Assembly (NCBI RefSeq): GCF_045037415.1
Contig: NZ_CP173438.1
Direction: 5' to 3' (one strand)
Length of the DNA: 64,000 nt
Origin: Escherichia coli
GTDB taxonomy: Bacteria; Pseudomonadota; Gammaproteobacteria; Enterobacterales; Enterobacteriaceae
Shown: piece by piece, positions 58,238 to 59,272 of the stretch
Position numbering within the stretch: position 1 is the first letter of the stretch
Layout: the number at the start of each line of letters is the position of its first letter
The notes under the pieces: model-generated
The model's database searches: none
Seen by the model: the letters and a program-made list of their open reading frames with translations, nothing else
Told to the model about the DNA's origin: nothing
Position numbers and translations under genes: made by a program

Positions 58238-58574
58238 CATGACTCCTTGCTCATCGCATGAAGACTCCGAGAGTGAACCCCGTTAGAAAGGGTCACACGC
58301 ATGCCCCAATACAAAATTATTTGCTCGCCTCTATCGTTGCCATTTCATCAAAAGAAGAAAAGACAATGATAAAAAAGTTACAAATATGTTAATGAATAAA
58401 CCAAATTTATCCCGTAATTATATTACGCTGCAAAATCCTTACAATAAACAGGTTTTTATTGAGCAAATTTGCATTTTTCGACAGTGATCAATTTATAGCG
58501 AAATTGTCACGATCCCACCAATTTGATCTACAACAATTTATCGTGTTTTGCAGATTTTTTTCAAGAATTAAAAA

Positions 58575-58588
58575 TTGATTTATATCAA
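58575..58588. promoter_or_regulatory. FNR-consensus site in the cydAB control region
   Basis: TTGATTTATATCAA, a perfect TTGAT-N4-ATCAA, about 340 nt upstream of cydA; weaker half-site TTGATCTACAACAA at 58523-58536. Confidence 0.65.
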
Positions 58589-59173
58589 AATCAATCAGAT
58601 ATGTTAACCGCTCGTAAATCATGAATCATTGATGGGTTTGTTGTTAATAAATTGTAGCAAAATAACACAGTAAAACTACCCACATGGAAATATATAGATA
58701 AAAAACCAGTATTTTATTTAACAGAACCGCCTTATCGACTTTTTATAATACTAGTTAGTTAGAGTAGCTACTTTGTTGCCATTTTACATAACATATTTTT
58801 ATCAACGTTAATTGATTGTTGTCTTTATGAGCAACGTACTGTAAATCCGTCACTTATTGTTTCATTGGTAATAATCACAAGAAGAAATAGATACCTTAGG
58901 TATAGTCAGATGGAACAAGGATTTTCAAAATAAATTTATATGGTATTAATATTTCCCGATCTGTATTCAATGATTCGCTCAAAGATTGAAAATCAAGAGA
59001 AATTGTTATAGCAGTGATACGAGACAACAAAACGGAATGATTGCCAGCCGTTAGAAAACACCGGACACTCTCGTGTAAAAAGCTACCCTGTCTATGGATA
59101 TAGCGATATCGACTCATCAAGCGTGGACTGAATGATATTCAGCTCCATATGGGCGGCAACCTGGAGGATAAAC

Positions 59174-59272
59174 ATGATTTCGCCGTTGGAATCAAGGTTG
59201 TTCTGCAATATCTACCAGACTGCTTCAATTTATCTGTTTTGGAAGTGCAATAATCTTAATTTAACTATTTGA
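59174..59272 (+). CDS. Candidate small ORF (32 aa) preceded by a strong Shine-Dalgarno
   Basis: GGAGG at 59163-59167, 6 nt before the ATG; hand translation MISPLESRLFCNIYQTASIYLFWKCNNLNLTI; coding status unverified. Confidence 0.25.
   Translation: MISPLESRLFCNIYQTASIYLFWKCNNLNLTI

What the first reader, a model, noticed from the sequence alone, without database searches (positions are those of the whole stretch)
58238..59272. Extended AT-rich cydAB control region with a consensus FNR site
The 1 kb upstream of cydA is strongly AT-rich and carries a perfect FNR consensus TTGATTTATATCAA (58575-58588) plus a half-site 50 bp upstream, matching the known complex multi-promoter, ArcA/FNR/H-NS-regulated cydAB region. 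Its left portion merges into the putative accessory insertion, so where conserved regulatory DNA ends and acquired DNA begins is not obvious from sequence alone.
Basis: partly seen in the sequence, partly recalled or inferred. Interest (0 to 1): 0.35.

Follow-up and report, generated by a model that had tools for sequence, protein, structure and literature searches.

The report
Divergent cydAB oxygen-control region (ST131)
This is the ordinary oxygen-responsive control region of the cytochrome bd-I operon, but in this ST131-type E. coli it is an old, very divergent version that keeps the K-12 FNR and ArcA sites in the same places, followed by about 900 bp of lineage-specific spacer.

Summary
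58238-59272 has 33.5% G+C, the lowest of any 1-kb stretch in the window. TTGATTTATATCAA at 58575-58588 is the only perfect FNR consensus in 64 kb. A second site with 9 of 10 matches lies 52 bp nearer cydA.

cydA is on the minus strand, and the window is E. coli ST131. K-12 is identical from -1 to -74. It then falls abruptly to about 74% identity, the same level as against other genera, and stops aligning near -465 (58704).

The regulatory layout survives: two FNR sites, a core promoter matching the K-12 start site at -172, and three ArcA boxes at -155, -421 and -568. These are the only ArcA boxes of 15 bits or more in the window, and they match the K-12 ChIP-seq positions.

The functional region therefore ends near 58820-58900. 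58904-59779 is single-copy spacer, found only in 1106 of 5426 complete genomes and interrupted by IS1 in some.

The neighbouring TPR gene is probably not a recent insertion, because it lies between sucD and cydA in Pseudocitrobacter, an Enterobacter sp. and Pectobacterium. The K-12 arrangement looks derived.

This is a known system with an undescribed allele. Interest is modest.

The parts
56669..58237 (-). cydA coding sequence (cytochrome bd-I subunit I). The annotated ATG is at 58237, and an in-frame ATG lies 3 nt upstream at 58240.
   Evidence: ORF list. RefSeq annotation of an identical ST131-type genome. 98.4-98.6% DNA identity to K-12 cydA.
58238..58311 (-). Proximal leader with the Shine-Dalgarno sequence AAGGAG (58243-58248). 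It is 100% identical to K-12 and ends at the sharp divergence boundary near -67 to -75.
   Evidence: Identity in 50-column and 30-column bins. No significant RNA structure, z = -0.17.
58375..58392 (+). Proximal ArcA box AAGTTACAAATATGTTAA (-155 to -138, 20.2 bits). It is the positional homologue of K-12 ArcA ChIP-seq site cydA3 (-152 to -135).
   Evidence: Weight matrix built from 112 ArcA boxes of Park 2013 Table S3 (the 115 held in the stored file, less the three cydA sites). Shuffle test.
58413..58444 (-). Core promoter: -35 TTGTAA at 58439-58444 and -10 region TAATATAAT at 58417-58425. G58413 aligns with the K-12 transcription start mapped 172 nt upstream of cydA.
   Evidence: Promoter scan, 10 of 12 matches. 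K-12 start site 770509 with its upstream sequence, from the Kim 2012 supplement. The aligned block is 86-97% identical to K-12 and is also conserved in Pectobacterium.
58523..58536 (+). Promoter-proximal FNR site TTGATCTACAACAA (9 of 10 consensus positions, centre -292.5). It is the homologue of the K-12 site TTGTTCTCGATCAA.
   Evidence: The K-12 FNR ChIP-seq summit (770404, which is -277) lies 12 bp from the homologous site.
58575..58588 (+). Distal FNR site TTGATTTATATCAA, a perfect consensus with centre at -344.5. It is the homologue of the K-12 site TTGATATTTATCAA.
   Evidence: A perfect site is present at the same position in K-12, O157:H7, UTI89, E69, Pseudocitrobacter and Enterobacter sp..
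58641..58658 (+). Middle ArcA box TTGTTAATAAATTGTAGC (-421 to -404, 19.4 bits), at the position of K-12 ArcA ChIP-seq site cydA2. The adjacent ST131-specific patch ccgctcg (58608-58614) removes further boxes that are present in UTI89, O157 and E69.
58788..58822 (.). Distal ArcA element. TTGATAAAAATATGTTAT lies on the minus strand (58788-58805; -568 to -551; 17.3 bits) and abuts a weaker plus-strand box at 58805-58822 (12.1 bits). It sits at the position of the strongest K-12 ArcA site, cydA1 (-590 to -573), but in DNA that does not align with K-12.
   Evidence: K-12 homology ends at about 58704.
58312..58903 (-). Divergent allele of the cydAB control region, 28.7% G+C. It is shared at 89-96% identity with O157:H7 (to about 58878-58903), UTI89 and E69. 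It is about 74% identical to K-12 as far as 58704 and does not align beyond that.
58904..59779 (.). Lineage-specific AT-rich spacer, 35.4% G+C. It has no FNR or ArcA motif and no match to an RNA or protein family. It is single-copy, occurs only in 1106 of 5426 complete genomes, and is a site of IS1 insertions and indels.
59744..59765 (-). G+C-rich hairpin immediately after the TPR stop codon, with stem GUGGGCAUC/GAUGCCCAC. It is the probable 3' end of the TPR transcript, although its U-tract is poor.
   Evidence: Fold: -26 kcal/mol, z = -5.6. The strict terminator scan did not call it.
59780..60973 (-). Gene for a secreted protein of 397 aa with a YfaP/DUF2135-like N-terminal part and C-terminal TPR repeats. 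It is transcribed in the same direction as cydA.
   Evidence: Translation and Pfam scan. Names given by sources. Same sucD-TPR-cydA position in Pseudocitrobacter, Enterobacter sp. BIGb0383 and Pectobacterium.

Best explanation
The interval is made of three pieces.

(1) 58238-58311 is the species-invariant leader and ribosome-binding site of cydA.

(2) 58312 to about 58820-58900 is the working oxygen-control region of cydABX. It is an allele that has diverged from the K-12 allele as much as different genera differ from each other, yet it keeps the same layout. That layout is a core promoter with a start near 58413, tandem FNR sites centred 292.5 and 344.5 bp upstream of the ATG, and three ArcA-P sites at about -150, -415 and -570.

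By analogy with K-12, H-NS silences the AT-rich DNA. Phosphorylated ArcA relieves that silencing and activates transcription when oxygen is low. FNR bound at the tandem sites represses under full anaerobiosis, so expression peaks under microaerobic conditions.

(3) 58904-59779 is lineage-specific spacer between the control region and the terminator hairpin of the upstream TPR gene, with no recognisable regulatory content.

The TPR-cydA arrangement is the older one. The K-12-type arrangement, with mngB abutting cydA, replaced the TPR gene and everything upstream of about -75.

Shown here: the sequence motifs, their statistics, the positional homology and the population and outgroup distribution. 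Inferred: factor binding and the regulatory outcome in this strain.
For: Motifs and their statistics:
- One perfect FNR site in 64 kb, with 0.11 expected. It is at the same position in every E. coli allele examined and in two other genera.
- A matrix built from 112 ChIP-derived ArcA boxes (the 115 held from Park 2013 Table S3, less the three cydA sites) gives three hits of 15 bits or more in the whole window, all within 58375-58805. Shuffles of that AT-rich stretch give 0.13 hits, and 0 of 1000 shuffles reach three.
- The three positions (-155, -421, -568) match the K-12 ArcA ChIP-seq sites at -152, -418 to -370 and -590.
- The K-12 start site at -172 aligns to a TTGTAA-N16-TATAAT promoter in the window.
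- The K-12 FNR ChIP summit lies next to the homologous proximal site.

Divergence from K-12:
- cydA coding DNA is 98.4-98.6% identical and -74 to -1 is 100% identical.
- From about -75 the identity falls to inter-genus values. The binned profile of the window against K-12 tracks its profile against Pseudocitrobacter and Enterobacter sp..
- No alignment is found beyond -465.

Upstream arrangements:
- The identical CydA protein is found behind three different upstream arrangements.
- sucD-TPR-cydA synteny is present in Pseudocitrobacter, Enterobacter sp. BIGb0383 and three Pectobacterium species, with a 690-740 bp gap between TPR and cydA in the Enterobacter sp. and Pectobacterium (in Pseudocitrobacter the mng genes lie between TPR and cydA).
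- E69, whose cydA DNA is only 96.3% identical to the window, has this type of control region and a TPR pseudogene.

Spacer: it occurs in 1106 of 5426 genomes as a single copy, and carries IS1 insertions and indels.
Against: - No binding or expression data exist for this allele, so all regulatory function is carried over from K-12.
- ST131 lacks two ArcA boxes that UTI89, O157 and E69 have next to the distal FNR site. Its quantitative behaviour may therefore differ.
- I could not read the primary papers that define promoters P1-P5, so only one K-12 start site is mapped onto the window.
- The case for TPR being ancestral is weakened by three points. The gene is absent from most Enterobacteriaceae: Klebsiella has consecutive sucD and cydA locus tags. 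Its G+C is low at 44.6%. It has relatives in Bacteroidota and Helicobacter. Repeated transfer into the gap between two highly conserved genes is therefore not excluded.
- A function for the distal spacer, such as extended H-NS nucleation, cannot be ruled out from sequence.
Confidence: 0.78

Rival explanations
1. A roughly 1-kb K-12-like conserved control region grades into a recently acquired accessory insertion made of the TPR gene and its flanks.
For: - The distal part and the TPR gene are absent from K-12 and from 80% of complete E. coli genomes.
- The TPR gene has lower G+C than its neighbours.
- The gene has a patchy distribution across phyla.
Against: - K-12-level conservation stops at -74, not at 1 kb.
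- The TPR gene lies in the same sucD-cydA gap in three other genera, with identities of 62-76% that rank in the same order as those of CydA and SucD.
- There are no mobility genes, tRNA or integrase between mngB and cydA.
- The divergent Escherichia genome E69 carries this allele type.
Confidence: 0.12
2. The whole 1.54-kb AT-rich tract, distal spacer included, is one functional unit. For example, it could be an enlarged H-NS nucleation platform, or it could carry extra promoters that change cydAB expression in the strains that have it.
For: - The tract has uniformly low G+C (29-35%).
- The spacer is 90-96% conserved between ST131, UTI89 and E69 over several hundred bases.
- Consensus promoter-like hexamers occur in it.
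Against: - The count of promoter-like sites equals the shuffle expectation, 11 against 10.6.
- The spacer has no ArcA or FNR motif.
- Lineages differ there by large indels of 259 bp, 91 bp and about 150 bp.
- IS1 insertions are tolerated there.
- Genera with the same gene order manage with a gap of about 700 bp.
Confidence: 0.08
3. The FNR and ArcA matches are chance products of AT-rich sequence and have no function in this strain.
For: AT-rich DNA inflates matches to AT-rich motifs. A single perfect FNR match occurs in 11 of 100 shuffles of the whole window.
Against: - Shuffles of the AT-rich region itself give 0.13 ArcA hits against 3 observed.
- Every site coincides in position with an experimentally bound K-12 site.
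- The sites persist across alleles and genera while the surrounding bases have diverged to saturation.
Confidence: 0.02

Closest known systems
E. coli K-12 cydAB control region: several promoters, tandem FNR sites, three ArcA-P binding regions and H-NS silencing (Cotter 1997 and Govantes 2000 as cited in PMC3688515 and PMC3798270)
   Same: - Same downstream operon.
- Identical leader from -74 to -1.
- Homologous core promoter at the mapped start site.
- Two FNR sites with the same 52-bp spacing and the same distance from the ATG.
- ArcA boxes at the three positions bound in K-12.
- Very low G+C.
   Different: - Only about 74% identical from -75 to -465, and unalignable beyond that.
- The distal ArcA element lies in non-homologous DNA, 22 bp nearer cydA.
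- The -10 region reads TATAAT instead of TATATA.
- The proximal and middle ArcA boxes score higher than in K-12 (20.2 and 19.4 bits against 14.8 and 13.0).
- The upstream neighbour is a TPR gene 1.5 kb away, not mngB 0.85 kb away.
Switched or alternative intergenic regions in front of core genes ('regulatory switching', Oren 2014, as described in the Piggy paper, PMC5890482)
   Same: One core gene, with an identical CydA protein, sits behind at least three alternative upstream regions within the species. The boundary is sharp, close to the start of the gene.
   Different: The alternatives here are not unrelated promoters. The regulatory layout is preserved, so this looks like replacement by an orthologous region from a distant lineage rather than rewiring. 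I found no mention of cydA in the papers I could read.
cydAB upstream regions of other Enterobacterales (Pseudocitrobacter, Enterobacter sp. BIGb0383, Pectobacterium)
   Same: - sucD-TPR-cydA gene order.
- A perfect FNR site at -351 and ArcA boxes near -155, -420 and -590 to -620 in the two Enterobacteriaceae.
- A conserved promoter block.
   Different: - In the Enterobacter sp. and Pectobacterium the gap between TPR and cydA is about 700 bp. This window has about 880 bp of extra spacer.
- Pseudocitrobacter has the mng genes between TPR and cydA, whereas ST131 has them upstream of TPR.

Membership tests
FNR binding site (CRP/FNR-type inverted repeat) | Match to TTGAT-N4-ATCAA | tested here: met
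   10 of 10 at 58575-58588 and 9 of 10 at 58523-58536.
FNR binding site (CRP/FNR-type inverted repeat) | Positional homology to a site bound by FNR in experiments | tested here: met
   The two sites align with the two K-12 sites. The K-12 FNR ChIP-seq summit lies at -277, 12 bp from the proximal homologue.
FNR binding site (CRP/FNR-type inverted repeat) | FNR occupancy and repression in this strain | not testable with these tools
   Needs ChIP or footprinting and reporter assays in an ST131-type strain.
K-12-type cydAB control region | Collinear sequence homology across the whole mngB-cydA intergenic region (846 bp in K-12) | tested here: not met
   Alignable only from -1 to -465, and at 74% identity upstream of -75. 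K-12 positions 1-385 have no counterpart.
K-12-type cydAB control region | Three ArcA-P binding regions upstream of cydA | tested here: met
   By sequence only: boxes of 20.2, 19.4 and 17.3 bits at the K-12 ChIP-seq positions, against 0.13 expected.
K-12-type cydAB control region | Mapped promoter and transcription start | tested here: inconclusive
   The K-12 start at -172 has a well-conserved counterpart. The positions of P1-P5 from the primary papers could not be read, and there are no start-site data for this strain.
K-12-type cydAB control region | H-NS binding over the promoter, countered by ArcA | not testable with these tools
   Only the composition is consistent with it, at 28.7% G+C.
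Switched intergenic region before a core gene | The same core gene behind alternative, non-homologous or highly divergent upstream DNA within one species | tested here: met
   The identical CydA protein is found with three upstream arrangements. Census of complete genomes: 1106 of the window type, 3182 of the K-12 type, and the rest other types.
Switched intergenic region before a core gene | Changed regulation of the downstream gene | not tested
   The site layout is conserved, so any change would be quantitative. It needs expression assays.
Recently acquired genomic island (TPR gene plus flanks) | Mobility genes, a tRNA or flanking repeats, and absence from related taxa at that locus | tested here: not met
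   TPR is the only gene between mngB and cydA. The same gene lies at the same locus in three other genera. I did not search specifically for flanking repeats.

The most novel reading that the evidence does not exclude
E. coli carries two control-region alleles for cytochrome bd-I that differ as much as separate genera do. The first is the window type, found in ST131 and the UTI89/ST95/Nissle group and shared in part with the O157 type; it is probably ancestral. The second is the K-12 type, probably imported as one block together with mngRAB, with a crossover about 70 bp upstream of cydA.

Selection has kept the FNR and ArcA layout, even rebuilding a distal ArcA site in unrelated DNA. The differences in box number and strength would give extraintestinal pathogens such as ST131 a different oxygen set-point for cytochrome bd-I than the K-12 model predicts.
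Probability: 0.3. Interest if true: 0.55.

Novelty: new member of a known kind. Interest (0 to 1): 0.3.

Why it matters
The cydAB promoter is a textbook example of combined FNR, ArcA and H-NS control, and essentially everything known about it comes from K-12. About a fifth of complete E. coli genomes, including ST131 and the uropathogen UTI89, carry a control region that matches K-12 only in its last 74 bp.

The conserved positions of the sites, set against a saturated background, act as a natural footprint. They mark which elements matter, including the distal ArcA site about 570-590 bp upstream.

The practical point is that K-12 coordinates and K-12 expression set-points should not be transferred to these strains without a check. 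Beyond that, the biology is the expected one.

Tried and rejected
- **Glycosidase pseudogene in the distal spacer.** By eye, a conceptual translation across frames near 59060-59272, and the fuller version in E69, resembled the N-terminal motifs of a GH13 glycosidase. Searches of that peptide against PDB sequences and Pfam at E up to 10 found nothing, so I dropped the idea.
- **Remnants of the O157:H7 hypothetical genes.** tblastn of the two genes that flank cydA in O157:H7 against the spacer gave no significant match.
- **Small ORFs in the gap.** None of the six ORFs of 44-79 aa has a Pfam match. Indels between ST131, UTI89 and E69 disrupt them.
- **Known RNA families.** Rfam gave nothing within 58000-61000. 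One sub-threshold hit (Ysr49, 26.9 bits against a cut-off of 95) lies at the mngB terminator.
- **Leader RNA structure.** The fold is no more stable than shuffles, z = -0.17.
- **Repeated or mobile origin of the spacer.** It is single-copy and chromosomal in every genome that has it.
- **Primary papers.** I could not read the papers on P1-P5 (Govantes 2000) or on regulatory switching (Oren 2014). Literature searches found no description of this allele.
- **Protein search with the TPR protein.** The table listed only near-identical E. coli sequences and was uninformative about other taxa. The genome-collection scan answered that question instead.

Full report
**What is at the coordinates**

cydA lies on the minus strand. 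The ORF is 56669-58240 and the annotated ATG is at 58237, so 'upstream' means higher coordinates. Going upstream the order is:
- a 1542-bp gap without genes (58238-59779);
- a 397-codon gene for a secreted protein with TPR repeats (59780-60973);
- a 197-bp spacer;
- mngB (61171-63804).

The lowest-G+C kilobase of the whole window starts at 58351. TTGATTTATATCAA sits exactly at 58575-58588 and is the only perfect TTGAT-N4-ATCAA in 64 kb, with 0.11 expected. The 'half-site' is a 9/10 match at 58523-58536, 52 bp away on the cydA side.

**Where the window comes from and who shares the region**

The gap is 100% identical to E. coli ST131 genomes such as JJ1886 and several O25b:H4-ST131 strains. Among 5426 complete E. 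coli genomes:
- 1106 carry the distal part of this gap. Of these, 563 are at least 99% identical (ST131 among them) and 540 are 90-95% identical (UTI89, ST95, Nissle and similar strains).
- 3182 carry the K-12-type distal sequence instead.
- The rest have other arrangements. One example is O157:H7, where a methylaspartate-mutase cluster and two hypothetical genes lie upstream of cydA.

The very same CydA protein is found behind all three arrangements.

**Comparison with K-12**

| Segment (relative to the cydA ATG) | Identity to K-12 |
|---|---|
| cydA coding DNA | 98.4-98.6% |
| -74 to -1 (58238-58311) | 100% |
| -75 to about -465 (58312-58704) | about 74% overall, with bins from 0.30 to 0.97 |
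| beyond about -465 | no alignment |

Between -75 and -465 the binned profile of the window against K-12 is the same as its profile against Pseudocitrobacter or an Enterobacter sp. From -66 to -39 K-12 is identical while those genera are 47-61% identical. The boundary between species-level core DNA and something much older is therefore sharp and lies about 70 bp upstream of cydA. It is not somewhere in the distal AT-rich DNA.

On the other side of the variable segment, mngB falls from about 95% identity to 84% and then 73% towards its 3' end.

**The regulatory layout is conserved**

*FNR.* The two FNR sites are centred at -344.5 and -292.5, against -341.5 and -289.5 in K-12. The K-12 FNR ChIP-seq summit (770404, with the cydA ATG at 770681) lies at -277.

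*ArcA.* I built a weight matrix from the ArcA boxes of Park et al. 2013 Table S3, leaving out the three cydA sites. In the entire 64-kb window only three positions score 15 bits or more:
- 58375-58392 (-155 to -138, 20.2 bits);
- 58641-58658 (-421 to -404, 19.4 bits);
- 58788-58805 (-568 to -551, 17.3 bits).

Dinucleotide shuffles of the AT-rich proximal 650 bp give 0.13 such hits, and none of 1000 shuffles reaches three. The K-12 ArcA ChIP-seq sites lie at -152 to -135, -418 to -370 and -590 to -573. The third and strongest K-12 site lies in DNA that does not align with the window, yet the window has its own box 22 bp away from that position.

*Other alleles and genera.* The same layout recurs in O157:H7, UTI89, E69, Pseudocitrobacter and Enterobacter sp. 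BIGb0383.

*Promoter.* The K-12 start site mapped 172 nt upstream of cydA aligns with G58413. It sits behind TTGTAA-N16-TATAAT (58444-58417), in the best-conserved block of the region. That block is recognisable even in Pectobacterium.

*A strain-specific difference.* ST131 carries a small patch (ccgctcg, 58608-58614) that removes ArcA boxes which UTI89, O157 and E69 have next to the distal FNR site.

**The distal part**

Collinearity with O157:H7 ends at 58878-58903. From there to the TPR stop codon (58904-59779):
- there is no FNR or ArcA motif;
- there is no Rfam match;
- no small ORF has a Pfam match;
- promoter-like hexamers in the 58200-61200 scan that covers it occur at the shuffle rate.

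Lineages differ here by large indels. UTI89 lacks 59585-59843, which removes the last codons of its TPR gene. E69 has 91 extra bases near 59080 and lacks about 150 bp elsewhere. Several ST131 genomes have IS1 inserted here, about 1 kb upstream of cydA in strain AREA_494. The sequence is single-copy and chromosomal.

A strong hairpin follows the TPR stop codon (59744-59765, -26 kcal/mol, z = -5.6). It probably ends the TPR transcript, although its U-tract is poor. In the Enterobacter sp. and Pectobacterium, which have TPR directly upstream of cydA, the gap is only 690-740 bp. The working control region therefore ends around 58820-58900, and the remaining 880 bp or so is best read as spacer.

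**Is the TPR gene an insertion?**

A scan of one genome per species found the closest relatives of the TPR protein in Pseudocitrobacter (76% identity), Enterobacter sp. BIGb0383 (63%) and Pectobacterium (62%). In all of them the gene lies between sucD and cydA.

UTI89 has sucD-sdhX-TPR-cydA. ST131 is the same with mngRAB inserted between sdhX and TPR. E69, whose cydA DNA is 96.3% identical to the window's (K-12's is 98.6%), has this type of control region and a TPR pseudogene.

The simplest reading is that TPR-cydA is the old arrangement and the K-12 type is derived. The K-12 type was probably brought in as a block together with mngRAB.

Four points argue the other way:
- Most Enterobacteriaceae lack the gene. 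Klebsiella has consecutive sucD and cydA locus tags.
- Its G+C is 44.6%.
- More distant relatives occur in Bacteroidota and Helicobacter.
- sucD and cydA are conserved enough to allow recombination between genera.

**Mechanism**

In K-12, ArcA activates cydAB, probably by opposing H-NS. FNR represses partially, which gives maximal expression at low oxygen (PMC3798270 and PMC3688515, citing Cotter 1997 and Govantes 2000). All the corresponding sequence elements are present here at the same spacing, so the same logic very probably applies. That step is inferred, not shown. The differences in box strength and number could shift the response quantitatively.

**Comparison with what is known, and verdict**

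The system itself is well known. The population pattern fits the described phenomenon of alternative intergenic regions in front of core genes (PMC5890482). Here, though, the replacement is an orthologous and functionally equivalent region rather than a new promoter. I found no description of this cydAB allele in the papers I could search.

The finding is real and correctly located. Its interpretation needs correcting on the extent of the control region, on its similarity to K-12, and on which DNA is 'acquired'. Interest is modest.

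Noticed in passing
window 61171-63804 (mngB) and L002 1-6000: The ST131 mngRAB genes are unusually divergent from K-12. Identity is about 92-96% over mngR, mngA and the 5' part of mngB, about 84% over the last 1.2 kb of mngB, and 73% over its last 200 bp. UTI89 lacks mngRAB altogether. ST131 equals the UTI89 arrangement plus mngRAB inserted between the sdhX sRNA and the TPR gene.
   Followed up: partly
window 59585-59843: UTI89-type strains lack these 259 bp. The deletion removes the last 26 codons of the TPR gene (371 aa instead of 397) and its terminator hairpin. Homologues in other genera align to the full-length C-terminus, so the ST131 form looks intact and the UTI89 form truncated.
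   Followed up: partly
window about 59267 (L047 1810-2590) and hits H1/H81, H95: IS1 is inserted in the distal AT-rich spacer upstream of cydA in several ST131 genomes (AREA_494, TUM11356 and strain 98194). In AREA_494 it lies about 1 kb upstream of the ATG.
   Followed up: partly
window 58608-58614: An ST131-specific patch (ccgctcg, where other alleles have an AT-rich sequence) lies just upstream of the distal FNR site. It removes ArcA boxes of 16-20 bits that UTI89, O157:H7 and E69 have at -381 to -364 and -410 to -393.
   Followed up: partly
L031 (E. coli strain E69, CP089930.1) 1696-2429 and the spacer near window 59080: E69 carries a TPR pseudogene in which residues 89-239 are missing. 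It also has 91 extra bases that include a 30-codon ORF with a good ribosome-binding site, which ST131 and UTI89 lack. Its origin is unknown.
   Followed up: partly
window 61093-61188: A weak Rfam match to Yersinia sRNA Ysr49 (26.9 bits against a cut-off of 95) overlaps the terminator-like hairpin after mngB (61098-61117). It is most likely just the terminator.
   Followed up: no
L005 (Pseudocitrobacter vendiensis) 3269-13543: The gene order there is sucD-TPR-(about 3.9 kb)-mngB-cydA. The mng genes therefore lie between TPR and cydA, the opposite order to ST131. This shows that the sucD-cydA gap has been rearranged repeatedly.
   Followed up: no
window 52400-53000: An extreme AT skew (down to -0.77) inside the 436-codon ORF 52043-53353 (minus strand). 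By its position in the identical ST131-type genome this is tolA, and the skew is probably its repetitive Ala/Lys-rich linker.
   Followed up: no
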